Shown piece after piece: positions 1 through 13,903 of a stretch of DNA of 64,000 nucleotides. The first letter of the stretch is position 1, and each line of letters opens with the position of its first letter. Where the stretch lies: assembly GCF_016903815.1 (NCBI RefSeq), contig NZ_CP069973.1. One strand, given 5' to 3'. The notes under the pieces are model-generated. The model made no database searches, was not told where the DNA came from, and saw nothing but the letters and a program-made list of their open reading frames with translations. The DNA comes from Escherichia coli. Lineage in GTDB: Bacteria; Pseudomonadota; Gammaproteobacteria; Enterobacterales; Enterobacteriaceae. A program made the translations under genes and the position numbers.

Positions 1-651
1 TGATTCAGCAATCTCCGCGTCCGGGTTTGCCGAACCACCGTGTAGCACCAGCGGAATATCAATACGTCCGGCAATGTCGCGCAAAATGTCCATTTGCAGC
101 TTCGGCTGCATCCCTTTTGGATAGATGCCATGCGCTGTACCAATCGCCACAGCCAGAGTGTCGGCACCTGTACGAGCAATAAAATCGGCGGCCTGCGCCG
201 GATCTGTGTAGGTCACTTGTGAAACACCACCTTCTACCGACGTTCCTGTTTGTCCGATGGTTCCCAGTTCACCCTCAACCGACACTCCAACCGCGTGAGC
301 GAGGCGAACCACTTCTGCGGTCAGCGCCACGTTTTCTTCATACGGCAGCAGCGAACCGTCGATCATTACTGAGGTAAATCCGCAGCGAATCGCACGCAAA
401 ACATGCTCTACAGAGGCACCATGATCGAGGTGCAGTACAAACGGGACCGGACTACGCTGGGTAATTTCGCGAACGTGAGCGAAAAAGGCATCGCCCACAA
501 AATCATGTTCGCTGGGATGGATGGCAATAATCGCCGGAGTATTTGTCGCTTCTGCTTCATCCACGACTGCGCGAAGGAAACAGTTATCCGCCACATTAAA
601 TGCGCCAATGGCAAAGCCGTGCTGGCGGGTAGGTTGCAGTAATTCTTTCAT
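1..651 (-). CDS. class II ketose-bisphosphate aldolase, N-terminal part only (gene runs off the window start)
   Basis: Minus-strand translation from ATG at 649-651 reads MKELLQPTRQHGFAIGAFNV...HLDHG...GELG...AIGTAHG...LHGGS, typical class II (FbaA/KbaY/GatY) aldolase motifs; no stop before position 1. Confidence 0.8.
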   Translation of the reverse strand, partial: MKELLQPTRQHGFAIGAFNVADNCFLRAVVDEAEATNTPAIIAIHPSEHDFVGDAFFAHVREITQRSPVPFVLHLDHGASVEHVLRAIRCGFTSVMIDGSLLPYEENVALTAEVVRLAHAVGVSVEGELGTIGQTGTSVEGGVSQVTYTDPAQAADFIARTGADTLAVAIGTAHGIYPKGMQPKLQMDILRDIAGRIDIPLVLHGGSANPDAEIAES

Positions 652-743
652 CGAAACTAACATGTTAAATCTCCAGTTTCAGCGTGTAGTCCGCCCTGCC
701 GGTGCGTTATTGCACTGGCATAAAGGCCATGACAGAAAATGAA

Positions 744-1595
744 TCAGGCTTTGCCGATAGAGCCGCTCGCCTGTAAATACGGTGTAATCGCTTCTTCGAA
801 GGCCAGTTCCATAGCTTTCAGCGCGTCCACCAGTTCAATGGATATATCGTGACAGAGGGTATGCAGGAGCGCGGATTTCCCCCGTTCAAAAATGGCCGCC
901 CCCACGTTGATTTTTGCTACCCCCAGAGTCGTACAGAGCTGGAGCTGATCGAACGGCGTACCGCTACCACCATGTAATGCCAGAGGCACGCTCGAGCAGT
1001 GGAAAATCTCCGCCAGACGCTGAAAATCAATAGCAGGTACAACACCAGGCGCGTACATGCCGTGCGCCGTGCCTACCGAGACGGCCAGTAGATCAATGCC
1101 TGTCTGCGCGATAAACGCTTCCACATCAGTGGGTTGCGTCATCATGTCTGCATTGGCGGCCTGGTCGTAACGCGGCGCATCTGCCAGATGGCCCAGTTCG
1201 CCTTCAACGCAGAGCTGCGCGCTGGCGGCGAGTTCCACCACCGCCTTGGTCTGGCGCACGTTTTCCTCCAGGGGAAAAGCAGAAGCATCAATCATTAATC
1301 CGCTGAAACCAGCACGAAACGCCTGACGAATACAGTCCGGATTTTTGCCATGATCAAGCGCCAGAGTGACCGGTACTGAGGCAGATTCCGCGAGCGTTTT
1401 AACCACTGCCGCCGCGACGGGTGCAGGAAAATGCGCCAGATGCCCCTGATAGAGATTGAGAATGATTGGAGCGCGATTCTTCTCCGCCACGCGGATAGCT
1501 GCGCGAGCACTTTCCAGATTCATATAGTTGATCGCCAGCAAGGCGTAATGTTCATGCCAGGCTTTCATCACCATACTTTTCATATCGGCAAACAT
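744..1595 (-). CDS. class II ketose-bisphosphate aldolase (283 aa), second aldolase paralog of the PTS operon
   Basis: ORF-track protein with LALDHG, GELGH, VGTAHG and LHGGSG motifs of class II aldolases; tandem with the partial aldolase and the PTS genes on the same strand. Confidence 0.85.
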   Translation of the reverse strand: MFADMKSMVMKAWHEHYALLAINYMNLESARAAIRVAEKNRAPIILNLYQGHLAHFPAPVAAAVVKTLAESASVPVTLALDHGKNPDCIRQAFRAGFSGLMIDASAFPLEENVRQTKAVVELAASAQLCVEGELGHLADAPRYDQAANADMMTQPTDVEAFIAQTGIDLLAVSVGTAHGMYAPGVVPAIDFQRLAEIFHCSSVPLALHGGSGTPFDQLQLCTTLGVAKINVGAAIFERGKSALLHTLCHDISIELVDALKAMELAFEEAITPYLQASGSIGKA

Positions 1596-1606
1596 AGGGC
1601 CTCCGG

Positions 1607-2698
1607 TTATTCGAGGGTGAAAGTGATCTCTTCATCTTTCAGCTTTTGATCGCTCAGTTCGTCAAACTCTTCGTCGCGTTCCGTTACCGGTTTCTTCCAG
1701 AGTGAAAGCATCACGCCACAAATCACCGTGCCTATACCCAGCGCCAGGCAAAACAGCAGAGGATGGGTGAACAGAGGCACAACAAACATGCCGCCATGTG
1801 GAACCGGACTCTCCACGCCCCACACCATGATTAAGCCGCCCGCGACCGCCGATGCCACCACACAAGATCCCACTACTCGCAACAGGTCACGCGCGGCGAT
1901 CGGAATGACTCCTTCAGTGATCATGCAGATCCCCATCGGAAACGCGGCTTTCAGCGCCTCGCGCTCCGCACGGGTGTATTTATGGCGTGTCAGTAAGAAC
2001 GAAAGTGTGATGCCAAACGGAGGGATGATTGAGCCGACAAATTTCACGGCTTCTGGTCCGTAGACGCCACTGACCAGCAAGCCATCGGAAAACAGCGACA
2101 TGGTTTTGTTGACCGGACCACCGAAATCGAAGGTTGCCATCGCGCCAAGTATGGCCCCCATCAGGAAGCGCGATCCGCCCTGCATCGACTCGAGCAAATG
2201 AATCAGTGCTTCTTGTAACCAGGCGATGGGTTTACCAATCAGCGTCATCATTAACAGCCCACCGATAATGGTGCTTAATACCGGCAACACCATGATTGGC
2301 ATGAGTCCTTGCATCGACTGCGGCAGGCGAATATAGCGTTTAAGTAGCAAAATGGTGTAGCCCACCAGGAAACCACCCAACATACCGCCAATAAATCCGG
2401 TATGGATTTGCCCACAGAGAAAGCCGACAATCAGGCCCGGGGCAAATCCGGGACGATCGGCAATAGAATAGGCAATTGCCGCGCTAATCAGCGGCACAAT
2501 CAGCCCCATTCCCCAGCCGCCAATCTGATTAAGCATCCACGGGATTGTTCCTGTTTTTTCACCAACATCTGTACCGCCAAGAACTTGCCCCAACGCAATA
2601 CATATCCCGGCGGCCACAATAAGGGGTATCATCCACGAGATGCCGGTTAATAAATGTTTTTTAATTTCCTGTGAAACCGGAATTTTATTTTCTTTCAT
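1607..2698 (-). CDS. PTS fructose-like EIIC permease (363 aa)
   Basis: Polytopic membrane protein, glycine-rich hydrophobic segments typical of fructose-family IIC; 12 bp from the aldolase gene, same strand. Confidence 0.8.
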   Translation of the reverse strand: MKENKIPVSQEIKKHLLTGISWMIPLIVAAGICIALGQVLGGTDVGEKTGTIPWMLNQIGGWGMGLIVPLISAAIAYSIADRPGFAPGLIVGFLCGQIHTGFIGGMLGGFLVGYTILLLKRYIRLPQSMQGLMPIMVLPVLSTIIGGLLMMTLIGKPIAWLQEALIHLLESMQGGSRFLMGAILGAMATFDFGGPVNKTMSLFSDGLLVSGVYGPEAVKFVGSIIPPFGITLSFLLTRHKYTRAEREALKAAFPMGICMITEGVIPIAARDLLRVVGSCVVASAVAGGLIMVWGVESPVPHGGMFVVPLFTHPLLFCLALGIGTVICGVMLSLWKKPVTERDEEFDELSDQKLKDEEITFTLE

Positions 2699-2722
2699 AT
2701 TAAGATCCCTCCAGTATAAGGA

Positions 2723-3037
2723 TCATTTATTTCCCAGTGATTTTTCGACCTTTTCAAGAAATTGAACGGGCGATTTAATGACGATCTCTGTCTTTACTCG
2801 CACAATGCGTTTATTGGTAAAACGTTCTTCTCCTTTTATTTTCACATCCACAGCAAGAATCACGACGTCAGCAGCAGAGATCTCTGCCGCCTGTAATTCG
2901 TTTTCTGTACCAATGGTTCCCTGGGTTTCAACTTTAATGGTGTGGCCCAGTGCTTTTGCCCCTTTAATTAACTTTTCACGAGCAATATAGGTGTGAGCAA
3001 TACCCGCCGTGCAGGCGGCAACACAGACAATATTCAT
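2723..3037 (-). CDS. PTS fructose-type EIIB (104 aa)
   Basis: N-terminal MNIVCVAACTAGIAHT with the phospho-Cys motif of fructose-like IIB domains. Confidence 0.8.
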   Translation of the reverse strand: MNIVCVAACTAGIAHTYIAREKLIKGAKALGHTIKVETQGTIGTENELQAAEISAADVVILAVDVKIKGEERFTNKRIVRVKTEIVIKSPVQFLEKVEKSLGNK

Positions 3038-3054
3038 GATATACTCCCTGTTAT

Positions 3055-3525
3055 TTAGTAGACATCGGATTGTGCATACTGACTAAAGAGATCAATGATT
3101 TTTTGCGGGCTCGTCTCAACCAGCAATTGCGCTATGATGTCATCATCTGCAAGCGCGCCCGCGACCTGGGAAAGTAAACGGATATGAGTGGTATTTTGAT
3201 CTTCAAGACGTACCGCAAATAAAATAATACAGCGTACGCTACTGCCATCCAGTGTTTCCCAGGGAATATCCTGCCGGGTACGCCCGATAGCCAGCGTGGT
3301 ATTAATTACCGCAGAAGATTTACCATGCGGGATCGCAATATGATTTTCAAAACCAGTCGAGCCTTCCGCTTCGCGCTGCCAGACATCTTTAATAAAGGTT
3401 TCCCGACAATCGATCGCACCATCTTTTTTGAGAAGATTAGTTAATTCTTCAATCGCCTCCGCTTTATTCGTCGCTTGCATATCTAAAATAACGCGATTCG
3501 TATTCAGGATTTTTGTTATGTCCAT
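3055..3525 (-). CDS. PTS EIIA, fructose/mannitol/PtsN type (156 aa)
   Basis: Size and conserved His-containing region (HIAIPHGK) typical of EIIA-Fru/Ntr family. Confidence 0.75.
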   Translation of the reverse strand: MDITKILNTNRVILDMQATNKAEAIEELTNLLKKDGAIDCRETFIKDVWQREAEGSTGFENHIAIPHGKSSAVINTTLAIGRTRQDIPWETLDGSSVRCIILFAVRLEDQNTTHIRLLSQVAGALADDDIIAQLLVETSPQKIIDLFSQYAQSDVY

Positions 3526-3551
3526 TCGTCATACCTCATAAAATTCTGACA

Positions 3552-5105
3552 TTAAATTTCAACGACCCGAGATGTCGCATGATGTAATTTTTCCGTAATC
3601 ACCATTTCAGTGACTCGCTTAATATCGGCATCATTAAAAAAAGCGGTAACATAAGCGACCGGCATAGTGACTGTAGGCAAATTAATGGTCGAAATAATCA
3701 GTTCGATATTGTCAGGCAAAACCTGTGATAAATTCGCTGCTGAAATAACATCAACAATCGTCCATTCAGGAAATGCTCGCAGAATACGGCTTTTCAGTAG
3801 ATGCGAAGTTCCGATTCCGGTTGAACAGACCAGTAATACACGTTTACGGGCAATTTGCCGCTCCATCGCAGCCTGAAAATGAACGGTCAGGTAACCTACT
3901 TCATCCTCGCTCACTGCATTCTCACCCCAGGTTTTAAATACCTGATTCACCACATATTGCGTCAACCGCCAGACATCCGCTAATTCTGCTTTAATATCTT
4001 CCAGCAATGGATTACGGATATGAATGCGATAATTTAGTCGGTTAATCAGCGGCTTAATATGAACCAACAAGCCATCATATAATGCGCTGTCTTCACTAAA
4101 ATCGCAGTCCACGATGTCACTGAATACCGTAATTAAACGCCAGGTAATCAGACGCGCTTCATTGCTGGCCTGCATATGTGAAATAATGCTAACATCTTTT
4201 TGTCCATCAATCGCCACACCTGATGAAATGATATATTGATAAATAAACCAGACTTCATCATCGGGCAATGTATGTGCAATTCGTTGTTCTATCTTATGAA
4301 TCATCTGACTGGCAACATTAAAGATATTTTCATCATATTGCCTGGTTTGATCTTCTTCTCTGGATAACGCATTCCCGTGCGTGTTGCGATACATCATAAT
4401 AAGGATGTGAGTAAAAATGTTAACGTAATAAGGCTCTCCCAAAGACCAACTTAATTCATTTTCCATATCCAGTAACAATGACTGGACAAATAACACCTCT
4501 TCTTCTCCAAAATAATGGACTAATGCTTTATAACTTCCGGGATCCAGACGTGAATACACGACACCTTGCGGCTCATTATGGTTAATAATGCCGTTAATCA
4601 GTAATGCCATTGCCTGTCGGACTTGCCCTTCACTACCTTCAATATGCGTACCACTTGGGCTGCGGATCAATGATAACCCCAACGGCGCAAGCCAGGACTC
4701 AATCACTCTCAGGTCATTAACAATAGAGGCTCCACTGATAAAATAGCGCTCTGACAATTTACTGATCGACGTTTCATTCGGTGTTTCACTTAATAACTGC
4801 GACGCTATTTTAACGCGCCTGGCATTATTCATTACACCATCAATCTCTTCACATTCTGCTCCCAACAAATGATCAAGATGCAGCAAATCAGTAATATTCT
4901 TCGAGTCTAACATCACACCTGCGCCAGCACGCTTCTCAACGGTTATTCGCCATTGTTCCAGCCATTGCTCAAGTAAACGTAAATCACGTTGAATGGTTTT
5001 TTCCGAAACATTTAAATAGCCGGCAATCGTAACAATAGTCGTATATTCCCTTCGTGGTAAAAGGAATCGTAATAATCTGTTTTGTCGCGAGGTAATCATT
5101 TGCAT
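3552..5105 (-). CDS. PRD-containing PTS operon transcriptional regulator (MgA/MtlR/LicR-like, 517 aa)
   Basis: N-terminal HTH region, central PRD-like region and a C-terminal EIIB-Gat-like motif (VLLVCSTGIGTSHLL); first gene of the minus-strand PTS/aldolase operon; matches the regulator of the frz-type operon described in extraintestinal E. coli (recalled, not searched). Confidence 0.75.
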   Translation of the reverse strand: MQMITSRQNRLLRFLLPRREYTTIVTIAGYLNVSEKTIQRDLRLLEQWLEQWRITVEKRAGAGVMLDSKNITDLLHLDHLLGAECEEIDGVMNNARRVKIASQLLSETPNETSISKLSERYFISGASIVNDLRVIESWLAPLGLSLIRSPSGTHIEGSEGQVRQAMALLINGIINHNEPQGVVYSRLDPGSYKALVHYFGEEEVLFVQSLLLDMENELSWSLGEPYYVNIFTHILIMMYRNTHGNALSREEDQTRQYDENIFNVASQMIHKIEQRIAHTLPDDEVWFIYQYIISSGVAIDGQKDVSIISHMQASNEARLITWRLITVFSDIVDCDFSEDSALYDGLLVHIKPLINRLNYRIHIRNPLLEDIKAELADVWRLTQYVVNQVFKTWGENAVSEDEVGYLTVHFQAAMERQIARKRVLLVCSTGIGTSHLLKSRILRAFPEWTIVDVISAANLSQVLPDNIELIISTINLPTVTMPVAYVTAFFNDADIKRVTEMVITEKLHHATSRVVEI

Positions 5106-5399
5106 TTTTTACCCTTATCACAGATTAAGAAGCCCCATGTGGAAGAGCTTCAGTTGCCATCTCTGAGGGTAAATATAAAGCAGAATAATTTCACAACAAT
5201 ACTAAAATCTGTCCGTAGTCCGGACATGTATAAAACAAAACGGGGCGGTTAATAGATATTTTTCGGCACAGATCACATTTTCGTGATGAATAATCGTGAT
5301 CATGCTCGCAAATACGATGGAAGAAATATTTATTACCAGATGTGAGATTATTTACCGGATACGACACAAAACCATTCGTATCCGGCATTCTTCAATAGA

Positions 5400-7718
5400 T
5401 TACAACGTAATTGTCAGCGCATTCCCTTGAGGAGTCACCACCAGTCCCTGCTCACTTTCAGCCTGCGAACCACCTTGCAGACCATTTACTTTCACAATAT
5501 TGCGCAAGCACAGTGTCCAGTTCTTCGCCTCGCCCGCACCAGTCACAGTAATCGTGTTGCCAGTACGCGCCGCTTTCAGGGTGAAAAGAACGGAACCGTC
5601 AGCAGCGGGCACTTCACAGATGGCTTCATGCCCGTCTTGTAGATTAAAGAGCTGGAATGCCGTGCCTTCGTGCCACGCGTAATCGGGACGTTGCTCGTTG
5701 TTGCCCAGCGCCAGTAGGGTGTTATCACGCACATAAACGGGCAGACTCAGGAAGCTGTGCTGCTGTTTATGCCAGCGACTACCATCGAGTTCATCGTTGT
5801 GCCACAGGTGTGTCCAGCGACCTTCAGGCAAGTAGAACTGCACATCGCCCGCTTCAGTGAACACAGGCGCAACCATCACGTTGTCGCCTAACATGTATTG
5901 ACGGTCAAGGTAATCACAAGCCGGATCGTCCGGAAACTCCATCATCATGGCCCGCATCATCGGCGTACCCCGCGCGTTCGCACGAGCAGCTTCACGATAC
6001 AGATAAGGCATCATGCGGCATTTCAGTTGCGTGAAGAAGCGCACCACATCACAGGACTCATCATCGTAGGCCCACGGCACACGATAAGATTTGCTGCCAT
6101 GTAAACGGCTATGGCTGGAGAGCAAACCAAACGCGCACCAGCGTTTGTAAACGTGCGCCGGAGCGGTATTCTCAAAGCCGCCGATATCGTGGCTCCAGAA
6201 GCCAAAACCTGAAAGGCCAATAGACAAACCACCGCGCAGGCTTTCCGCCATTGATTCGTAGTTAGCGTAACAGTCGCCACCCCAGTGTACCGGGAATTTC
6301 TGCGCACCAACGGAGGCAGAGCGAGCAAACAAGACGGCTTCTTCCTCGCCAACGGTTTCCTTGAGCACGTTCCACACCAGTTCGTTGTAGATGTACGCAT
6401 AATGGTTATGCATTTTCTGCGGATCGGAACCGTCAAACCATTGAACATCGGTTGGAATACGTTCGCCAAAGTCGGTCTTAAAGCAATCAACGCCCATCGC
6501 GACCAGACCTTTCAGTTTGTCGGCGTACCATTTGCAGGTATCCGGATTGGTAAAGTCATAAATCGCCAGACCTGGCTGCCATTTATCCCACTGCCATAAC
6601 GAACCGTCCGGGTGTTTGAGTAAATAGCCTTTCTCTTGTAACTCTTTAAAGACAGGGGATTTTTGCCCGATATAGGGGTTAATCCAGACGCAGATTTTTA
6701 GCCCTTTCGCTTTCAGGCGGCGGATCATCCCTTCCGGGTCCGGGAAAGTCAGCGGGTCCCACTCAAAATCGCACCACTGGAAGGCTTTCATCCAGAAACA
6801 GTCAAAGTGGAAAACATGCAGTGGCAGATTGCGTTCCGCCATACCATCGATAAAGCTGTTTACCGTCGCTTCGTCGTAGTTGGTGGTAAATGAAGTGGTT
6901 AGCCACAGGCCGAAGGACCACGCGGGCGGCAGCGCCGGACGACCAGTAAAACGGGTATAACGATCAAGTACCGCTTTTGGCGTCGGGCCGTCGATAACAA
7001 AGTATTCGAGATATTCACTCTCAACGCTGAACTGCACTTTGGAGACTTTCTCCGATCCCACTTCAAAAGAGACGCATTGAGGATGATTGACCAGTACCCC
7101 ATAACCACGGTTAGTCATATAGAACGGAATATTTTTATACGCCTGTTCAGTACTTGTGCCGCCGTCCCGGTTCCAGGTCTCTACCGTCTGGCCATTGCGC
7201 ACCAGCGCAGTAAAGCGCTCTCCCAGACCGTAAACTGTTTCGCCAACGCCAAGATCCAGCCGCTCAAACATATAATTTCGTTGATTATTCGTGTCCTGCA
7301 CGTAGCCATTATTTTTCACCTGACTACCGGTAATACGTTCGCCGTTACGCAGAAAATCCAGTGACCAGAACTCACCTTTGCTGACACGCGCACTTAAGTT
7401 GCCACTTTTAAACTCAGCGTAACGTTCTGTGTTTTCGATTGTGACCTTCACGTCCTGCAAAATATTGAGCGGGTAATGAGGACCGTTATTCAGCGCCCCC
7501 TGAAAATGCTCAATCCGTACACCGACAATACCTTCCTGTGGGGAGAAAAAGCGCAGCGTAAATAAAGGCGTATCAAGCTGCCAGGTACGTTCACGCACAT
7601 CACGAGGGGCAGCATAGACCACCATTTCATTACCCTGCTCTTCAACCTCGAACACCTGAAGCGGGTGAATCAAATTGAGGCCAGGTTGAATCAACCAGTT
7701 TCCGTCGCTAATTTTCAT
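5400..7718 (-). CDS. yicI: alpha-xylosidase, glycoside hydrolase family 31 (772 aa)
   Basis: 772-aa GH31 protein; position next to yicJ and selC matches the E. coli core order (recalled). Confidence 0.9.
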
Positions 7719-7727
7719 TGCCGTTCC

Positions 7728-9110
7728 TTAGTTCTGCACTTTTTGAGAGGTGAATTGTTGCTGGCAACGGCGTTTGCCCTGAGCCAGCTGTTCCATAACG
7801 GTTTTCAGATTGTGCGTCGTGAGTGAGTAGTAGCGTTTAGCGATAATCGCGCTCAGCAAATAACAGATCGCCGGAACAATCGTGAATAGCGCGATAATGA
7901 TGCTAATCGTGGCGCTGTTCTGCGCTTTTTCTGCCGCATCATATCCGCCATAAGCCAGCATCCAGCCGATAAGAGCGCCGCCGAAGGCCAACCCCAGTTT
8001 GAGCACAAACAGCGTGCCAGCAAAACTGATCCCGGTCAGGCGTTTACCATTGCACCACTCGCCGTAGTCGACGGTATCGGACATCATTACCCACTGGATA
8101 GGTGTCACCAGTTGATGCAACACACCAATCACGAAGATGAAGACAAACATAGTGATGCTGGCCTGCATAGGAACAAAGAACATCGCGAGGCTAATCACTG
8201 CCAGCAGGGCGTTCGTCCACCAGAAGATAGTGACTTTACATTTCCAGTCGGTCAGCGGTTTCGCCAGTGCGGAACCAATCAGGTTACCCACGCAATAAGT
8301 GGTAAGAAAAGCGACAAACACTTCCGGCGTACCCAAAATCCATGTGACGTAATACATCATCGCCCCGCCGCGTACGCATACCGCCAGAATATTGAAAATG
8401 GTCAGGAAACCGACAATACGCCACTGGTCGTTTTGCCAGATATCACGTAAATCTTCCCGCATAGACGTCGTTGTAGGTGGTGCTTCAACGCGTTCTTTAG
8501 TGGTGAAGAAACAAAATGCCAGCATCATAAATGCCACCACGGAAAGGACCGCGATACCGCCCTGGAAACCGAGTGGTTTATTATCACCACCAATTAAATT
8601 AACCAGCGGCATCATCAGCACAGTAGAGAGCATGCCTCCCGCGGTCGCCAGCACAAAACGCCAGGATTGCAGCGAGATACGCTGAGTCGGGTCATTGGTG
8701 ATTACACCACCCAATGCGCAGTAAGGGATATTAACGATGGTATAAAGTAAGGTAAGTAGGGTGTAAGTAATTGCTGCATAAATCATTTTTCCGTTCATAC
8801 TGAGATCTGGCGTGCTATAGGCCAGTACACAGACGATCCCAAATGGCAGTGCGCCAAACAGTACCCACGGACGAAATTTACCCCAGCGAGAGCGCGTTCG
8901 ATCGGCCAACAACCCCATGCAAGGATCGGAAATCGCATCCAGTGCACGAGCGACCAAAAACATGGTTCCGACAAATCCGGCAGGAATGCCAAAAATATCG
9001 GTATAAAAGAACATCATATATAACATTACGTTATCGAAAATAATGTGGCTGGCGGCGTCTCCCATGCCATAACCAATTTTCTCTTTAACGGACAACACTT
9101 CACTCTTCAT
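7728..9110 (-). CDS. yicJ: GPH-family sugar:cation symporter
   Basis: 12-TM transporter; start placed at internal ATG (MKSEVLSVKEK...) rather than the longer 479-aa ORF beginning at 9167. Confidence 0.85.
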   Translation of the reverse strand: MKSEVLSVKEKIGYGMGDAASHIIFDNVMLYMMFFYTDIFGIPAGFVGTMFLVARALDAISDPCMGLLADRTRSRWGKFRPWVLFGALPFGIVCVLAYSTPDLSMNGKMIYAAITYTLLTLLYTIVNIPYCALGGVITNDPTQRISLQSWRFVLATAGGMLSTVLMMPLVNLIGGDNKPLGFQGGIAVLSVVAFMMLAFCFFTTKERVEAPPTTTSMREDLRDIWQNDQWRIVGFLTIFNILAVCVRGGAMMYYVTWILGTPEVFVAFLTTYCVGNLIGSALAKPLTDWKCKVTIFWWTNALLAVISLAMFFVPMQASITMFVFIFVIGVLHQLVTPIQWVMMSDTVDYGEWCNGKRLTGISFAGTLFVLKLGLAFGGALIGWMLAYGGYDAAEKAQNSATISIIIALFTIVPAICYLLSAIIAKRYYSLTTHNLKTVMEQLAQGKRRCQQQFTSQKVQN

Positions 9111-9402
9111 CTGCTTTTCCTTGATGCTATAGGGGTGCTGAGACCGATAACGCATTTTGTAAACCATCCCTGTGAGAGCGAATATTCCGATATCTGGTTA
9201 TTAATTTATGATTCTTGTTTTATGTGATCGTGGTAGCGTTAATTCCGCTCATATATCATTGTAAAATATGGGTTTTATATGAATTATAATGCTTTCGTGA
9301 TAATACGCTGCGTGTATTAGGCGGAAAAAACTGATCTGGGGGATGTAGAAACTCAAGGAAGTAGCTATAATGCGCCCCGCCTCCATGTAGCAATCGAGGC
9401 GC

Positions 9403-9497
9403 GGAAGATCGTCGTCTCCGGTGAGGCGGCTGGACTTCAAATCCAGTTGGGGCCGCCAGCGGTCCCGGGCAGGTTCGACTCCTGTGATCTTCCGCCA
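9403..9497 (+). tRNA. selC: tRNA-Sec (selenocysteine tRNA), 95 nt ending in CCA
   Basis: Sequence GGAAGATCGTCGTCTCCGGTGAGGCGGCTGGACTTCAAATCCAGTTGG...GTTCGACTCCTGTGATCTTCCGCCA read directly; UCA anticodon loop (CTTCAAATC); long variable arm. Confidence 0.95.
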
Positions 9498-9796
9498 GTT
9501 TACCTCTTCTGAACTCTCCCAATGTCAATAAATCTCTTCTAATCCCTTGTATATCAGTATTTATTTGTATCCAGAGGTCAACCTACTTCACCCCGTATCA
9601 AGTTTCTTTTGGGGGTACTTTAGGGGGTGTTATTTCCTATTGAAATACCAGCACCCCCATAATAGGAAAAATATGATATATAACAACGGCTTTTAACAAC
9701 ATCTTTGTTATACAAGGGGTGTATTGGGGGTATCAGGTTAGTTACTGGCAGAAATCCCCCTCAGGAACATGAATTCATCAAAAGCCGGAGGATGTC

Positions 9797-10981
9797 ATGG
9801 CATTAACCGATATCAAAGTGAAAACCGCAAAACCCAAAGACAAACCCTATAAGCTTGCTGATGGCGGCGGTATGTATCTACTGATTAACACTAATGGTTC
9901 TAAATACTGGCGCATGAAGTACCGCTTTGCTGGTAAAGAAAAGATGCTTTCTATTGGCGTATACCCCGATGTAACGCTAGCCGATGCTCGCGAGAAACGC
10001 AGTGAAGCCAGGAAACTCCTCGCTGCTGGAGGCGATCCAGGGGAGGCAAAAAAGGAAGAAAAAATCGCGCAGCAAATGAGTCTGCAAAATACGTTCGAGG
10101 CTATTGCTCGCGAATGGCACCAGTCAAAAGCCGATCGGTGGTCATTACGCTATCGTGATGAAATCATTGATACCTTTGAAAAAGACATTTTTCCCTACAT
10201 TGGCAAGCGCCCTATTGCCGAAATCAAACCAATGGAGTTACTGGAAGCACTGCGTAAAATGGAAAAACGTGGAGCTCTGGAGAAAATGCGCAAGGTCCGC
10301 CAGCGCTGTGGTGAGGTGTTCCGCTATGCAATTGTTACTGGCCGGGCAGACTATAACCCAGCCCCCGATCTTGCCAGTGCTTTAGCTACACCGAAAAAAG
10401 TACATTTTCCCTTTCTTACTGCTAATGAACTTCCCCACTTCCTCAACGATCTGGCGGGTTATACCGGAAGTATAATCACTAAGACAGCTACTCAGATCAT
10501 TATGTTAACCGGCGTACGAACACAAGAACTGCGTTTTGCACGCTGGGAAGATATCGATTTTGAGACAAAATTGTGGGAGATCCCGGCAGAAGTAATGAAG
10601 ATGAAGCGACCTCATATTGTGCCGCTCTCTGAGCAGGTCATTATGCTATTTAAGCAGCTTGAACCAATCTCAAAACATCATCCCCTAGTCTTTATCGGTA
10701 GAAATGATCCCCGCAAACCAATTAGTAAGGAAAGCATTAACCAAGTAATTGAATTACTTGGATATAAGGGAAGACTCACAGGGCATGGTTTCAGACACAC
10801 CATGAGTACAATTCTGCATGAACAAGGCTTTAATTCCGCCTGGATTGAAATGCAGTTAGCTCATGTGGATAAAAATTCCATCAGGGGTACCTATAATCAT
10901 GCCCTGTATCTCGATGGCCGCCGTGAAATGATGCAATGGTACGCTGATTACATTGATTCACTCTCCAGCCGGGAAAGTTAA
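9797..10981 (+). CDS. P4-family tyrosine integrase (394 aa), island integrase at selC
   Basis: N-terminus MALTDIKVKTAKPKDKPYKLADGGGMYLLI... typical of P4-type integrases; C-terminal catalytic region with HGFRHT and Y; strong RBS GGAGG; 300 bp downstream of selC. Confidence 0.85.
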   Translation: MALTDIKVKTAKPKDKPYKLADGGGMYLLINTNGSKYWRMKYRFAGKEKMLSIGVYPDVTLADAREKRSEARKLLAAGGDPGEAKKEEKIAQQMSLQNTFEAIAREWHQSKADRWSLRYRDEIIDTFEKDIFPYIGKRPIAEIKPMELLEALRKMEKRGALEKMRKVRQRCGEVFRYAIVTGRADYNPAPDLASALATPKKVHFPFLTANELPHFLNDLAGYTGSIITKTATQIIMLTGVRTQELRFARWEDIDFETKLWEIPAEVMKMKRPHIVPLSEQVIMLFKQLEPISKHHPLVFIGRNDPRKPISKESINQVIELLGYKGRLTGHGFRHTMSTILHEQGFNSAWIEMQLAHVDKNSIRGTYNHALYLDGRREMMQWYADYIDSLSSRES

Positions 10982-11391
10982 GTCAAAAATACTTTTCCCT
11001 GATGTTTTCCTCAATTAAGTATTTTATCCTCTGGCCTACAAGGCTGGAGGATTTTTGTTATTATATTATTTTTTGCGTCTTCAAACTTATTACAAAAACA
11101 TAATTAAAAGCAAATTGACATTTTTAAATTGGCAATTACAAAATACAGCCTTGCAGTTATTTCGATACCTTTAGCAAAGGAAAAGTTGATTCAGATATAA
11201 TTTAGCATTTCAATCATCTGACATCATTATAAAAAATGAGATTCACATAAAGATAAAATTATTGTTCTCAAGGAAAGCATGAAGGGGCTTTGTAAGCAAT
11301 ATTCATTCAGTGCCAAGACAGGACTTGATACACAGAATCTCAACTTTTATGCTCTCAGACTATATCACCACATGTTTTACAGGCTCAGAAA

Positions 11392-12435
11392 ATGAACGAT
11401 AGATTATGCTTTGAAGTGCACGATAACCAGGGTTATTTCGTATTTCCGGATACCTGGTTTGGCCCATTGCTGGGGGAGTTTGAAGAAGTGCTTGATGCAT
11501 ACGACGCTGATGAAATCAGCGAGACGAGTTACATCAACAAACTCCGACGCCTTGCTCAACGGGAGCCGGACTTTATTGATATACACGCTCATCTGGCATA
11601 TGCATTTCTGGAACAGAATGCCCCGCGTAAGGCACTGAACGCCGCTCTTAAAGGACTGGCGGCAGGTAATCGTATCATCCCGGAAAGTTTCTGTGGTGAA
11701 ATAATCTGGATGCATCCCGAAAACCGGCCTTATCTGCGCGCGCTTTATGCAGCAATTCTCGCAAATGTGCACTTACAGCGCCATCAGGATGCGGTTATGC
11801 TCACTGATAAAATACTGGCATACAATCCTGAAGATAATCAGGGGGCTCGCTGGTTGTTGGGTTCAGAGCTGTTACGCACCGGCGATCATGAGCGAGCCTT
11901 CAGTGTACTGAAAGAGCATGCTGATGAATTTTCACCTTACTGGTATGAACTCGGTCTCCTGCATTTTCTGAACGGGGAACATGTTAAGGCCGCCACAGCT
12001 TTTCGCCATGGCTTTGCCACAAACACTTACATCGCAGAAATGCTGTGCGGAAATCTGCATCCATTTCCACTTGCTGTGTGGCATGACTTCTCCGGCTCTC
12101 TGGATACGGCAGAAGATTACTATGCAACATACTCACCATTATGGGGACAATATCCGGAAGCATTGCTGTTTGTAAACTGGCTCTATAATCATTCCTCTGT
12201 GCTGCATGAACGGGCAGAAATCATTAAATGCGCCGAAATGCTGATGCAGGAAGATGATTTCGAAATATGCGAAAGTATTTTAAGACAGCAGGAGAAGTTG
12301 CGTGAAAGAATTGATGAGACGCTTTCTGAAAAAATTGTACAGAAATGCAGAAATATGAATGGTGAATATGTCTGGCCCTGGATATTGCCGTTTTCAGCGG
12401 CAGGCATGAAACATACTGGCATACAGTATCAGTAG
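11392..12435 (+). CDS. hypothetical protein (347 aa), island cargo of unknown function
   Basis: Long ORF after a 410-bp AT-rich spacer downstream of the integrase; predicted mainly helical, no recognised motif. Confidence 0.55.
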   Translation: MNDRLCFEVHDNQGYFVFPDTWFGPLLGEFEEVLDAYDADEISETSYINKLRRLAQREPDFIDIHAHLAYAFLEQNAPRKALNAALKGLAAGNRIIPESFCGEIIWMHPENRPYLRALYAAILANVHLQRHQDAVMLTDKILAYNPEDNQGARWLLGSELLRTGDHERAFSVLKEHADEFSPYWYELGLLHFLNGEHVKAATAFRHGFATNTYIAEMLCGNLHPFPLAVWHDFSGSLDTAEDYYATYSPLWGQYPEALLFVNWLYNHSSVLHERAEIIKCAEMLMQEDDFEICESILRQQEKLRERIDETLSEKIVQKCRNMNGEYVWPWILPFSAAGMKHTGIQYQ

Positions 12436-12832
12436 ATATTGCATTAGTGTATCCTGCACACAAGTAATAATTTATCCACCAATAATAACACTGTTAATGT
12501 CCCCTTCCCCTGGTTGTCAGCCAGGGGTTATCTTCTGAATATTTCTTTTGAAAAGGATAACACAGTAAATTATTTTTATGAATTATCCCATGGACTCATT
12601 AACACCCTTTCATAATGCTTTATTGTCAAACACGTTATGGCTGACATCAAAAAAAACCGGATTTCCTCTGCCAGCGGGTAATCACCTTCCCGGTGTTTTC
12701 GGTTGGTCTGGTTACTCCTGTCTGGTTATTAGCAAGATAATTGCTATAAACAGTGGAAAACTCATCGTACATAATCTGGTGATGAACATTACGCTTATTT
12801 TCCCTTGACCGGAAGAATCAGAGGCTGTGGTT

Positions 12833-13903
12833 TCAGTCATACAGTCCATCTCCTTTAATCGGAGTTGGCTCTTTCCCTGGCCGTATACGGCGAACAGATT
12901 CTCGTATTACCAGTTTCCCATACAAAAGTAATGCACCAACAGTTGCATCAGGACGTACAAGTCTTTGTTGTAACATATGTACCGCTTCAGTACCCAGTTC
13001 ATCGCGAGGTACATGTACTGCCGTAAGTGGCACATCTTCTATTGCAGCCAGATTAAACCCATCAATACTCATTACGGACACATCTTGTGGCACTCGTATA
13101 TTACGTTTTTTTAAAGCGTTAATTATACCTGCAGCAATGAAGTCCCCACTTGCCAAAAAAGCAGTCGGTAGCATACTTTTCTCTGTCATATCCAGCCATG
13201 CTCCGACTTTTTCTTCGGCTTCTTTGGCGCTGAAACTATTAATAGTGAGTAAATCTCTGTCATCTTTAAAGTTCTGATTCTGTCTCTCCCATGCTTCTTT
13301 AATTCCGGCAAGTCGCAGTTCCATTGTGTATCGACGTAAACACATAATGTTCATTACTCTGCGATGCCCCATTTCAAACAGAAAGTGAGACGCAAAAGCA
13401 CCAATGTTTTTGTGATCTGGAGCAACTGTGGGAAGACGCATACGTCGATCATGGCAGTTAATCATTACGCACGGCTTAGAAAAATCTGCTGCAAGATCAT
13501 GTATATGAGGATCATCAATACCAAGCAATATTGCAGCCTGTGTTTCTGCCTCATTCATGCGCGCCAGGAATTTTGAAGGTGTACTATCGAACTCATCAAG
13601 GGCACAGTAACGCAACCGAACCTCATAATGCGATAATGCCTTGCTGATGCTTTGGATTACGCGGAAATAAAAAATGTCTGTTCGCTCATCAAAAGCCCGT
13701 TGAGGAGCAAAAATGACAAGGTTGTTTAACAACATACGGCCGGATGCCATTCCATCCATAACCCCAAGCTCTCTGGCACACGCCAATACTTTCTCGCGGG
13801 CACGATAACTGGTATTAGCTTTACCCGCTAAAACCCGTGACACGGTGCTGGATGAAAGGCCTGTTCGCATGGCAATATCAGCAATCTTTAGTTTTTTTTC
13901 CAT
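12833..13903 (-). CDS. LacI-family transcriptional regulator
   Basis: N-terminal HTH (KIADIAMRTGLSSSTVSRVLAG) plus periplasmic-binding-like sugar-binding core; start placed at first ATG (the track ORF begins at an upstream TTG, 13927). Confidence 0.8.
   Translation of the reverse strand: MEKKLKIADIAMRTGLSSSTVSRVLAGKANTSYRAREKVLACARELGVMDGMASGRMLLNNLVIFAPQRAFDERTDIFYFRVIQSISKALSHYEVRLRYCALDEFDSTPSKFLARMNEAETQAAILLGIDDPHIHDLAADFSKPCVMINCHDRRMRLPTVAPDHKNIGAFASHFLFEMGHRRVMNIMCLRRYTMELRLAGIKEAWERQNQNFKDDRDLLTINSFSAKEAEEKVGAWLDMTEKSMLPTAFLASGDFIAAGIINALKKRNIRVPQDVSVMSIDGFNLAAIEDVPLTAVHVPRDELGTEAVHMLQQRLVRPDATVGALLLYGKLVIRESVRRIRPGKEPTPIKGDGLYD

What the first reader, a model, noticed from the sequence alone, without database searches (positions are those of the whole stretch)
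1..5399. Fructose-like PTS operon with two class II aldolases and a PRD regulator upstream of yicI (frz-like islet)
Six minus-strand genes: a PRD-type regulator, EIIA, EIIB, EIIC and two tandem class II ketose-bisphosphate aldolases (the last runs off the window). This matches the accessory frz operon reported in extraintestinal pathogenic E. coli next to yicI (recalled from literature; K-12 lacks it as far as I remember). The duplicated aldolases suggest a ketose-bisphosphate pathway with unknown substrate.
Basis: partly seen in the sequence, partly recalled or inferred. Interest (0 to 1): 0.35.

Follow-up and report, generated by a model that had tools for sequence, protein, structure and literature searches.

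The report
Known frz sugar operon beside yicI
This is the already described frz operon of E. coli, a sugar-uptake system with two zinc aldolases and its own activator, carried by about 30% of complete E. coli genomes and missing from K-12. The finding is correct but ordinary, and the sugar it handles is still unknown.

Summary
Window 1-5105 (minus strand) encodes a PRD-type activator, EIIA, EIIB and EIIC of the fructose PTS family, and two class II (PF01116) aldolases; the second runs off the window.

- The locus lies between yicI and yicH, as published for frz in strain BEN2908.
- The published frz PCR primers match perfectly and give the published 843-bp product.
- An identical genome continues with the expected ROK kinase and cupin isomerase.
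- K-12 has only a 52-bp spacer at this site.
- Among 5426 complete E. coli genomes, 1606 carry frz and 3818 have the empty site.

What I add:
- frz is transcriptionally downstream of yicI, not upstream.
- The two aldolases are old paralogues (34% identity), not a recent duplication.
- Both keep the zinc and catalytic residues but lack the arginines that bind the 6-phosphate in true bisphosphate aldolases.
- The six genes in the window are the conserved core, found in Klebsiella, Salmonella, Pantoea, Brenneria and a low-GC organism. The kinase and cupin are variable add-ons.
- The operon sits at the same yicI/yicH site in other Enterobacteriaceae. It looks like an old resident lost in many E. 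coli lineages, not an ExPEC-specific acquisition.

The substrate remains unknown. Novelty: already known.

The parts
1..663 (-). Class II aldolase no. 2 (frz sixth gene). Only the N-terminal 221 of 286 codons are in the window; the rest lies beyond the window edge.
   Evidence: Translation. The full gene in the identical genome is L001 7803-8663. It passes NCBIfam subfamily PRK08185 (526 bits, cut-off 405). Zn ligands, D82, E132/E134 and N253 are conserved.
744..1595 (-). Class II aldolase no. 1 (frz fifth gene), 283 aa. This is the faster-evolving paralogue.
   Evidence: PF01116 E=1e-74. It passes no NCBIfam equivalog cut-off. It is 34% identical to aldolase no. 2. Zn ligands are kept, but S49, R259 and R280 (H. 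pylori numbering) are replaced by Y, F and A/V, and the NxDTD motif reads NVGAA.
1607..2698 (-). PTS EIIC, fructose family, 363 aa.
   Evidence: PF02378; TIGR01427 311 bits against cut-off 157; no equivalog cut-off reached. 94-97% identical in other Enterobacteriaceae, 83-85% in Pantoea and Brenneria, 75% in a low-GC contig.
2723..3037 (-). PTS EIIB, fructose type, 104 aa.
   Evidence: PF02302 and TIGR00829. The motif VAACTAGIAHT, with a cysteine, is read from the translation.
3055..3525 (-). PTS EIIA, fructose/mannitol type, 156 aa.
   Evidence: PF00359 and TIGR00848. The motif IAIPHG, with a histidine, is read from the translation.
3552..5105 (-). FrzR, a PRD-containing DNA-binding activator of 517 aa (HTH_11, Mga, PRD1, PRD2, EIIB-like domain). 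It has no C-terminal EIIA-like domain and no RNA-binding CAT domain.
   Evidence: Pfam domains. H233, H349, H409 and C427 are invariant in seven orthologues from six genera or contigs. The published frz PCR amplicon (843 bp) lies inside this gene.
5296..5310 (-). CRP-like site TGCGA-N6-TCAC in the frz upstream region (inferred).
   Evidence: Pattern match. The pattern TGnGA-N6-TCAC is invariant across six sequences from E. coli, K. aerogenes, Salmonella and two unidentified Enterobacteriaceae contigs. No binding was tested.
5269..5280 (-). Conserved block AAATGTGATCTG, function unknown. It may be a second CRP half-site or part of an operator.
   Evidence: AAnTGTGATCTG is invariant in alignment A1.
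5210..5226 (-). Palindrome TGTCCGGA-CTA-CGGACA followed by the conserved TTTAGTATTGT. Proposed operator for FrzR, placed just upstream of a weak -35 (inferred).
   Evidence: The scan flagged it as terminator-like. However, TGTCC...GGACA is sequence-invariant across genera, with variable inner bases and no compensatory changes, and its hairpin is weak (-9.5 kcal/mol, z=-2.4). That pattern fits a protein-binding site better than an RNA hairpin.
5172..5177 (-). Candidate -10 hexamer TATATT, with a weak -35 TTGTTG at 5199-5194 (16-nt spacer). Inferred activator-dependent promoter.
   Evidence: TATATTTA is invariant in alignment A1; sequence read. The consensus scan did not report it because the -35 matches only 3 of 6 positions.
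5355..5385 (-). Stable hairpin directly after the yicI stop codon, the likely yicI terminator. It marks the right-hand boundary of the frz-specific DNA.
   Evidence: Inverted repeat of 10 nt, 100% complementary. Folding energy -18.3 kcal/mol, z=-4.0. A homologous hairpin is present in K-12.
5400..7718 (-). yicI (alpha-xylosidase), the flanking core gene. Given for context only; it is not part of frz.
   Evidence: ORF; annotation.

Best explanation
Window 1-5399 is the promoter-proximal three quarters of the known eight-gene frz operon: frzR, EIIA, EIIB, EIIC, aldolase 1, aldolase 2, ROK kinase and cupin isomerase. It lies between yicI and yicH.

Shown here:
- Gene content, order and intactness.
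- Identity with the published frz locus.
- Absence from K-12.
- Presence in about 30% of complete E. coli genomes.
- Strong purifying selection.
- Conservation of the six-gene core far beyond E. coli.

Inferred working model:
1. A sugar of the fructose-PTS family type is taken up and phosphorylated by EIIABC. The sugar is not identified and is probably a ketose.
2. The sugar phosphate is split by one or both zinc-dependent class II aldolases into dihydroxyacetone phosphate plus an aldehyde.
3. Both aldolases lack the arginine pair that holds the 6-phosphate in true fructose- or tagatose-bisphosphate aldolases, and the conserved core contains no second kinase. I therefore favour direct cleavage of the PTS-made monophosphate over a bisphosphate route.
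4. The ROK kinase and the D-lyxose/D-mannose-type cupin isomerase are dispensable add-ons. They would salvage a free mannose- or fructose-like sugar into fructose 6-phosphate.
5. FrzR is a DNA-binding PRD activator of the MtlR/ManR/LicR type without the terminal EIIA domain; it is not an antiterminator. It probably binds the conserved TGTCC-N7/8-GGACA palindrome next to a weak promoter. It is probably switched by phosphorylation of its conserved PRD histidines and EIIB-like cysteine, with cAMP-CRP acting at a conserved TGnGA-N6-TCAC site.

Evolutionary inference: the operon is an old resident of the yicI/yicH site in Enterobacteriaceae that many E. coli lineages have lost.

The confidence given (0.85) is for the identification as frz and its general nature as a PRD-activator-controlled PTS-plus-aldolase module. 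The individual inferred steps are less certain: about 0.4-0.5 for monophosphate cleavage and about 0.6 for the old-resident history.
For: Identity with frz:
- Same yicH/yicI position and size as published.
- Published primers give the 843-bp product.
- 98.3% identity to an APEC O2:K1 genome with the same eight genes.
- K-12 has a 52-bp spacer. The site is biallelic: 3818 empty and 1606 frz of 5426 genomes.

Functional genes under selection:
- All ORFs are intact.
- Against the APEC allele, EIIA differs at 4% of bases but only 2 of 156 residues, and EIIB at 4.1% of bases but only 1 of 104 residues.

Domains.

Conserved core:
- Pantoea has only the six genes. Brenneria has the six plus ROK. One Enterobacteriaceae contig lacks ROK.
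- A 34.5%-GC metagenome contig has an orthologous core (EIIC 75%, EIIB 77%, aldolase 2 70%, aldolase 1 50%).
- That contig's Lyx_isomer (24%) and ROK (29%) are barely related to the E. coli ones, and it adds a type I phosphomannose isomerase.

Aldolase residues:
- D82, H83, E132, E134, H180, H210 and N253 are invariant in both paralogues.
- R280 is A/V in aldolase 1 and N in aldolase 2. R259 is F in aldolase 1 and K in aldolase 2. S49 is Y and H.
- The roles of these residues are taken from PMC10665668, and the H. pylori reference sequence was verified against PDB 3C4U.

Regulator: H233, H349, H409 and C427 are invariant, and no CAT domain was found.

Upstream conserved blocks.

Old resident locus:
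- Same site in K. aerogenes and two other Enterobacteriaceae contigs.
- Frz protein identities (63-97%) fall in the range of the flanking YicH (70-81%), YicI (87-88%), YicJ (83-85%) and XanP (88-94%).
- No mobility genes or flanking repeats were seen.
- Decay remnants exist in E. coli HS-02 and GN04171.
Against: - No substrate is known, and nothing here measures transport, cleavage or regulation.
- The catalytic-loop glutamate (E142 in H. pylori) aligns with Ala in aldolase 1 and Gly in aldolase 2. One or both could be poor catalysts, or could use a different acid. Loop alignments are unreliable.
- Aldolase 2 keeps a lysine at the R259 position, as GatY and KbaY do. A bisphosphate substrate made by a host kinase (FruK or PfkA) is not excluded.
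- frzR, EIIA and EIIB have a much lower GC3 (0.38-0.42) than the rest of the operon (0.52-0.58). Simple vertical descent does not explain this.
- In Salmonella serovar Ituri the operon sits next to a degraded foreign yicI fragment, so horizontal transfer with flanking DNA does occur.
- Published phenotypes concern fitness under stress and the type 1 fimbrial switch, not growth on a sugar (PMC8777976, PMC12928451).
Confidence: 0.85

Rival explanations
1. A conventional ketose-1,6-bisphosphate pathway. The PTS makes a ketose 1-phosphate (fructose-, tagatose-, sorbose- or psicose-like). A host or operon kinase adds the second phosphate. The two aldolases are ordinary bisphosphate aldolases with different stereospecificities.
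For: - Both proteins are full-length PF01116 members, and their closest solved relatives are FBP and TBP aldolases.
- Aldolase 2 has Lys at the R259 position and a Lys one position after the K184 position, resembling GatY and KbaY.
- The known PTS-dependent tagatose and galactitol routes work this way (established knowledge of the gat and aga pathways; genes shown).
Against: - The conserved six-gene core contains no kinase.
- The only kinase, where present, is a ROK-family enzyme. ROK kinases act on free sugars, and this one is missing from some orthologous clusters.
- The partner-subunit arginine R280, kept in GatY and KbaY, is lost in both frz aldolases. Aldolase 1 has lost all three 6-phosphate ligands.
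Confidence: 0.3
2. Frz is mainly a sensory or regulatory PTS. Its phosphorylation state, or FrzR itself, feeds into other regulons such as the type 1 fimbrial switch, and carbon catabolism is secondary or absent.
For: Published phenotypes are fitness under oxygen restriction and late stationary phase, and a shift of the fim switch toward OFF in the mutant. No growth substrate is reported in the papers I could read (PMC8777976; PMC12928451; PMC6727828).
Against: - Two metabolic enzymes are strictly co-conserved with the transporter from E. coli to a low-GC organism.
- Sugar-salvage enzymes have been attached to the core repeatedly.
- The enzymes are under strong purifying selection.
- These three points fit a catabolic pathway. 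A regulatory side-effect of its flux or phosphorylation state is compatible with catabolism rather than an alternative to it.
Confidence: 0.2
3. A recently acquired, ExPEC-specific virulence islet inserted between yicH and yicI by horizontal transfer. This is the reading implied by 'accessory islet of ExPEC'.
For: - Absent from K-12 and from the tested EHEC, ETEC and EAEC strains; present in all but one of the tested ExPEC strains (chi7122 lacks it) and in both AIEC strains.
- Low GC3 of the frzR, EIIA and EIIB genes.
- Transfer together with a yicI fragment is visible in Salmonella serovar Ituri.
Against: - Same chromosomal site in K. aerogenes and other Enterobacteriaceae, with divergence similar to the flanking core genes.
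- No integrase, IS element or direct repeats at the borders.
- Present in an EPEC strain and a commensal strain, and absent from APEC chi7122.
- Found in isolates from water, pigs, dogs and wild animals.
- Deletion remnants exist in frz-negative strains.
Confidence: 0.2
4. A cryptic, decaying gene cluster with no current function.
For: - Occasional IS1 insertions and deletions: strain 98200, GN04171 and HS-02.
- No known substrate.
Against: - 1601 of the 1606 carrier genomes cover at least 80% of the region.
- Synonymous change far exceeds amino-acid change in EIIA, EIIB, EIIC and aldolase 2.
- Catalytic and phosphorylation-site residues are invariant across genera.
- Mutant phenotypes have been published.
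Confidence: 0.03

Closest known systems
frz operon of ExPEC/APEC strain BEN2908 (Rouquet et al. 2009, J Bacteriol 191:4427; GR27 in PMC12928451)
   Same: - Same position between yicH and yicI.
- Same size: 7281 bp against 7283 bp.
- Same gene order in an O2:K1 APEC genome, at 98.3% nucleotide identity.
- The diagnostic frz primers amplify the expected 843 bp in silico.

   Different: - The window carries a minority allele. 263 genomes are at least 99% identical to it, and 1343 are 95-99% identical.
- Divergence is concentrated in EIIA and EIIB (96%), the upstream region (95.9%), frzR (98.1%) and aldolase 1 (98.4%, 8 amino-acid changes).
- Only six of the eight genes lie inside the window.
Galactitol and N-acetylgalactosamine pathways of E. 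coli (gatYZABCD; kbaYZ/aga)
   Same: A PTS transporter is encoded together with a class II (PF01116) aldolase that yields DHAP. GatY and KbaY are 33-36% identical to the frz aldolases and share all metal ligands.
   Different: - GatY and KbaY work with a non-homologous helper subunit (GatZ, KbaZ). frz instead has two PF01116 paralogues.
- GatY and KbaY keep the 6-phosphate arginine R280; the frz aldolases do not.
- The PTS families differ, and frz has no dehydrogenase or deaminase.
YdjI (octuluronate-1-phosphate aldolase) and SqiA (class II sulfofructose-1-phosphate aldolase)
   Same: These are PF01116 enzymes that cleave ketose 1-monophosphates. They lack the partner-subunit arginine: Leu in YdjI and Ala in SqiA (PMC10665668). 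Both frz aldolases lack it too.
   Different: - Only about 33% identity to YdjI.
- Different gene context: those enzymes work with kinases and non-PTS transporters.
- The substrates of the frz enzymes are untested.
PRD-containing activators MtlR, ManR and LicR of Bacillus, with their fructose-family PTS operons
   Same: HTH, Mga-like domain, two PRDs and an EIIB-like domain with a conserved cysteine, encoded beside a fructose-family PTS. The comparison with the Bacillus proteins rests on established knowledge, not on a test here.
   Different: - FrzR in Enterobacterales ends after the EIIB-like domain, with no EIIA-like domain. The 653-aa orthologue in the low-GC contig is about 135 residues longer at the C-terminus.
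- PGAP names FrzR a 'BglG family antiterminator', but it has no CAT RNA-binding domain.
Z5688 D-lyxose/D-mannose isomerase of E. coli O157:H7 (PDB 3KMH/3MPB)
   Same: The frz cupin, which lies just outside the window, matches it over its full length at E=6.6e-65.
   Different: - It is a paralogue. It scores below the NCBIfam equivalog cut-off (272 against 350).
- No O157-type copy was detectable at DNA level with the frz gene as query.

Membership tests
frz operon (Rouquet 2009) | Located between yicH and yicI | tested here: met
   yicI follows the operon in the window. The identical genome EC21 shows yicH on the other side. PMC12928451 gives yicH..yicI as the borders of the frz region.
frz operon (Rouquet 2009) | Published diagnostic primers frz-FP and frz-RP give an 843-bp product | tested here: met
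   Both primers match with no mismatches, at 4700-4681 (minus strand) and 3858-3877 (plus strand), spanning 843 bp.
frz operon (Rouquet 2009) | Eight genes: activator, EIIA, EIIB, EIIC, two class II aldolases, ROK kinase, cupin protein | tested here: met
   Six genes are in the window. The ROK and cupin genes are in the base-identical genome and in APEC O2:K1. The published gene list itself is recalled from memory of the paper's abstract, because the paper is not held.
frz operon (Rouquet 2009) | High sequence identity to frz of B2 ExPEC strains | tested here: met
   98.1-98.5% over 5399 bp to ST131, O2:K1 APEC and other genomes. Per-gene identity is 95.9-99.8%.
frz operon (Rouquet 2009) | Absent from K-12 | tested here: met
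   MG1655 has a 52-bp yicH-yicI spacer. 3818 genomes share that empty junction.
frz operon (Rouquet 2009) | Promotes fitness under stress and favours the ON state of the fim switch | not testable with these tools
   Phenotypes come from the literature only.
Fructose-family PTS enzyme II (EIIA, EIIB, EIIC) | Domain models for the three subunits, with the phosphorylation-site His (EIIA) and Cys (EIIB) | tested here: met
   TIGR00848, TIGR00829 and TIGR01427 are all above their cut-offs. The motifs IAIPHG and AACTAGIAHT are present in the translations. Specificity is undetermined, since no equivalog model reaches its cut-off.
Class II (zinc) aldolases, PF01116 | Three His metal ligands, the Asp before the first His, the E-x-E-L-G motif and the Asn of the NxDTD region | tested here: met
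   D82, H83, E132, E134, H180, H210 and N253 (H. pylori numbering) are invariant in all aldolase 1 and aldolase 2 sequences examined.
Ketose-1,6-bisphosphate aldolases (FBP- or TBP-specific members of PF01116) | 6-phosphate pocket: S49, R259 and partner-subunit R280 (H. pylori FBA; PMC10665668) | tested here: not met
   Aldolase 1 has Y, F and A/V at these positions. Aldolase 2 has H, K and N. GatY and KbaY have T, K and R. The test is by alignment only; no structure or assay was done.
Ketose-1,6-bisphosphate aldolases (FBP- or TBP-specific members of PF01116) | Catalytic-loop glutamate (E142 in H. pylori, E182 in E. coli FbaA) | tested here: inconclusive
   It aligns with Ala in aldolase 1 and Gly in aldolase 2. 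Conserved acidic residues lie 1-4 positions away in this flexible loop.
PRD-containing transcriptional activators (MtlR/ManR/LicR type) | N-terminal HTH plus Mga-like domain, two PRDs with conserved His, and an EIIB-like domain with Cys | tested here: met
   Pfam domains. H233, H349, H409 and C427 are invariant.
PRD-containing transcriptional activators (MtlR/ManR/LicR type) | C-terminal EIIA(Mtl)-like domain | tested here: not met
   The protein ends about 90 residues after the EIIB-like cysteine, and no PF00359 hit was found.
BglG/SacY antiterminators (the name given by PGAP) | N-terminal CAT RNA-binding domain acting on a RAT/terminator RNA | tested here: not met
   No CAT domain: the N-terminus is HTH_11 plus Mga. 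Only the PRD region resembles LicT or GlcT. No Rfam element was found in the leader.

The most novel reading that the evidence does not exclude
The conserved six-gene core (activator, EIIABC and two anciently diverged zinc aldolases) would be a self-contained pathway. In it the PTS-made ketose 1-monophosphate is cleaved directly, possibly by an aldolase 1/aldolase 2 hetero-oligomer. The cleavage would release DHAP plus a free aldose of mannose or lyxose configuration. The variably attached cupin isomerase, ROK kinase and, in a low-GC relative, phosphomannose isomerase would then salvage that aldose. This implies an unusual substrate, such as a rare or higher-carbon (C7-C9) ketose, and a PTS-aldolase logic not described for E. 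coli.
Probability: 0.15. Interest if true: 0.55.

Novelty: already known. Interest (0 to 1): 0.18.

Why it matters
frz is used as a virulence-associated marker in avian and human extraintestinal E. coli, yet its substrate has been unknown since 2009. The analysis here does not change what the locus is. It narrows where to look in three ways.
- The six genes in the window are the conserved functional unit.
- The aldolases are unlikely to be ordinary bisphosphate aldolases.
- The accessory enzymes point to a free mannose- or fructose-type intermediate.

The analysis also cautions against reading frz as a pathotype marker. It behaves as an old chromosomal locus kept in some lineages and deleted in others.

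Tried and rejected
- **Primary papers not held.** Rouquet 2009, Reperant 2011 and the YdjI paper could not be read. The published gene list and phenotypes rest on secondary papers and on my memory of the abstract.
- **Substrate search.** Searches for a later paper identifying the frz substrate found none in the held library.
- **O157 paralogue.** A 'distant' DNA search with the cupin gene, meant to find the O157 Z5688-type cluster, returned only frz-positive genomes.
- **Known RNAs.** An Rfam scan of 1-9600 found only tRNA-Sec.
- **Promoter scan.** The consensus scan found nothing in the 294-bp upstream region. The promoter proposal rests on cross-genus conservation alone.
- **Hairpin at 5226-5210.** I first took it for a terminator or attenuator. 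I rejected that because its arms are sequence-invariant without compensatory changes and its folding energy is weak.
- **EAEC 042-type allele.** I guessed this from the neighbouring air/eilA genes and rejected it, because strain 042 lacks the frz region.
- **Small ORF.** The 65-aa ORF at 5191-5388 has no family match, is unannotated, and overlaps the conserved regulatory blocks. I treat it as spurious.
- **D-tagatose evolution paper.** PMC10101011 does not concern frz.

Full report
**What is in the sequence.** Window 1-5399 carries six intact genes on the minus strand.
- 3552-5105: a 517-aa regulator.
- 3055-3525: EIIA.
- 2723-3037: EIIB.
- 1607-2698: EIIC.
- 744-1595: a 283-aa class II aldolase.
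- 1-663: the first 221 codons of a second class II aldolase, which runs off the window.

Pfam and NCBIfam confirm every assignment. The three PTS proteins pass the fructose-family subfamily models but no equivalog model, so their sugar specificity is undefined. A 294-bp non-coding stretch (5106-5399) separates the regulator's start codon from the stop codon of yicI (5400-7718), which lies on the same strand. The operon is therefore transcriptionally downstream of yicI.

**Identity with frz.**
- Window 1-13399 is base-for-base identical to E. coli strain EC21. There the operon continues with a ROK-family kinase and a D-lyxose/D-mannose-type cupin isomerase, and ends 44 bp from the convergent yicH gene.
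- PMC12928451 places the frz operon of BEN2908 (Rouquet 2009) in the region bordered by yicH and yicI. The region is 7283 bp and the feature is 7227 bp, starting 44 bp after yicH. The EC21 interval is 7281 bp.
- The frz primers published for APEC typing (PMC6238794) match the window without mismatch, 843 bp apart. That is the published amplicon size, and it lies inside the regulator gene.
- An O2:K1 APEC genome has the same eight genes at the same site, at 98.3% identity.
- K-12 MG1655 has only 52 bp between yicH and yicI.

**Distribution.**
- Of 5426 complete E. coli genomes, 1606 carry the region, 1601 of them nearly full length.
- Another 3818 have the K-12-type uninterrupted junction, so the site is essentially biallelic.
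- Carriers include isolates from people, poultry, dogs, pigs, wild mammals, rivers and wastewater.
- In the strain panel of PMC12928451, frz is present in most ExPEC strains, both AIEC strains, EPEC E2348/69 and the commensal SCU-397.
- In the same panel it is absent from APEC chi7122, K-12 and the EHEC, ETEC and EAEC strains.

It therefore follows lineage rather than pathotype. The window carries a minority allele: 263 genomes are at least 99% identical and 1343 are 95-99% identical.

**Borders and history.**
- Homology between frz-positive strains and K-12 resumes 4 bp after the yicH stop codon and at the hairpin that follows yicI. That hairpin (5385-5355, -18.3 kcal/mol) is shared by both types.
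- There are no integrase genes, IS elements or direct repeats at the borders.
- Homologues of aldolase 1 were traced to their contigs. In Klebsiella aerogenes and two unidentified Enterobacteriaceae contigs the operon lies in the same yicI/yicH neighbourhood.
- E. coli-to-other-genus identities of the Frz proteins are 63-97%. This is the same range as the flanking YicH (70-81%), YicI (87-88%), YicJ (83-85%) and XanP (88-94%).
- Some E. coli show decay. HS-02 keeps only a 266-bp 5' remnant of the regulator gene plus the upstream region next to yicI. GN04171 and strain 98200 have IS1 insertions.

Together this favours an old resident locus lost in many E. coli lineages. Two observations cut the other way.
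- In Salmonella serovar Ituri the operon is preceded by a degraded extra yicI fragment and followed by an intact yicJ-yicI-yicH. It was therefore imported together with donor flank.
- The regulator, EIIA and EIIB genes have GC3 of 0.38-0.42, against 0.52-0.58 for the other five genes. K. aerogenes shows the same low overall GC over these genes. I cannot explain this.

**The conserved unit.**
- Pantoea has only the six genes seen in the window, located next to parC.
- Brenneria has those six plus ROK, inside a nif cluster.
- One Enterobacteriaceae contig has the cupin but no ROK.
- A 34.5%-GC metagenome contig has an orthologous core: EIIB 77%, EIIC 75%, aldolase 2 70%, EIIA 63%, aldolase 1 50%, regulator 41%.
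- In that contig the core is followed by a Lyx_isomer protein (24% identity), a ROK kinase (29%) and a type I phosphomannose isomerase.

The activator, transporter and both aldolases form the functional core. Enzymes that turn free mannose- or fructose-type sugars into fructose 6-phosphate have been attached to it more than once.

**The aldolases.**
- The two proteins are only 34% identical, so they are old paralogues, always found together. Aldolase 1 evolves faster: 58-86% identity across genera, against 80-92% for aldolase 2.
- I aligned them with KbaY, GatY, YdjI and H. pylori FBA. My recalled copy of the H. pylori sequence was verified as identical to PDB 3C4U.
- Both keep all metal ligands and D82, E132, E134 and N253.
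- According to PMC10665668, the 6-phosphate of FBP is held by S49, R259 and R280 of the partner subunit. In a class II sulfofructose-1-phosphate aldolase, R280 is Ala.
- Aldolase 1 has Y, F and A/V at these three positions, and NVGAA in place of NxDTD. Aldolase 2 has H, K and N. GatY and KbaY keep K and R. The monophosphate enzyme YdjI has C and L.
- The loop glutamate E142 aligns with Ala and Gly, but acidic residues lie nearby and loop alignment is uncertain.

My inference is that neither protein is a standard bisphosphate aldolase. Since the core has no second kinase, direct cleavage of the PTS product is the simplest model. This is inference from alignment, not a measurement.

**The regulator and its target.**
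- FrzR has HTH_11, an Mga-type domain, two PRDs and an EIIB-like domain. It has no CAT RNA-binding domain and no terminal EIIA domain.
- H233, H349, H409 and C427 are invariant in seven orthologues. It is a DNA-binding PRD activator, and the database name 'BglG family antiterminator' is misleading.
- An alignment of the upstream region from six sequences across genera shows five invariant blocks:
  - a CRP-like TGnGA-N6-TCAC (5310-5296);
  - AAnTGTGATCTG (5280-5269);
  - the palindrome TGTCC-N7/8-GGACA (5226-5210), followed by TTTAGTATTGT;
  - TATATTTA (5177-5170);
  - the ribosome-binding region.
- The palindrome was flagged as terminator-like. Its arms never vary and show no compensatory changes, and it folds weakly, so I read it as the activator's operator beside a weak -35.
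- No Rfam family matches the leader.

**Selection.** Against the APEC allele, EIIA and EIIB differ at about 4% of bases but at only 2 and 1 residues. EIIC and aldolase 2 have no amino-acid changes. Aldolase 1 has 8 changes at 1.6% base divergence. The operon is maintained, not decaying.

**Verdict.** The finding is real and correctly identified, and it is already known. The substrate, and the reason for two aldolases, remain open. The residue and gene-context observations above give testable leads but do not make the locus novel.

Noticed in passing
window 2700-5400 versus 1-2700: There is a compositional break inside the operon. frzR, EIIA and EIIB have GC3 of 0.38-0.42, while EIIC, both aldolases, ROK and the cupin have 0.52-0.58. 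K. aerogenes shows the same low overall GC over these genes. I cannot explain this.
   Followed up: partly
window 9403-9497 and onward: tRNA-Sec (selC) lies two genes beyond yicI. In the identical genome it is followed by a tyrosine integrase (about window 9797-10981) and island genes, so this is a selC-associated island. In BEN2908 the neighbouring region is the AGI-3 island.
   Followed up: no
window 24724-25491: An IS1-like element sits where strain EC21 has 5.3 kb. Relative to EC21 the window lacks the 3' end of the giant adhesin gene air/eaeX, eilA and part of the adjacent type III secretion translocator genes.
   Followed up: partly
window about 26580-32420: Long internal tandem repeats (steps of about 290 bp, 84-87% identity) lie within the air/eaeX inverse-autotransporter adhesin gene.
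   Followed up: no
window 5191-5388 (minus strand): A 65-aa ORF lies in the yicI-frzR spacer. It has no family match and no annotation, and it overlaps the conserved regulatory blocks. It is probably not a gene.
   Followed up: yes
L010 4833-5215 (Salmonella enterica serovar Ituri): Degraded fragments of a second yicI lie directly upstream of frzR, while an intact yicJ-yicI-yicH lies downstream of the operon. frz entered this genome together with a piece of donor yicI.
   Followed up: partly
L019/L020 1-3470 (34.5%-GC metagenome contig): Immediately upstream of the frz-like cluster is a second module made of a PRD regulator, a single class II aldolase and a fused EIIABC. Fructose-family PTS plus PF01116 aldolase therefore looks like a recurring unit. 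A type I phosphomannose isomerase ends the frz-like cluster.
   Followed up: partly
L016 3002-3267 (E. coli HS-02); L017 1953-2945 (E. coli GN04171): These are examples of frz decay. HS-02 has a deletion that leaves only the first 266 bp of frzR next to yicI and clips the end of yicH. GN04171 has an IS1 insertion that removes most of frzR.
   Followed up: yes
L004 12503-16671 (Klebsiella aerogenes): Between the frz cupin gene and yicH, K. aerogenes carries an extra RpiR-type regulator, a family 4 glycosidase and an EIICB gene. This is a second sugar module at the same site.
   Followed up: no
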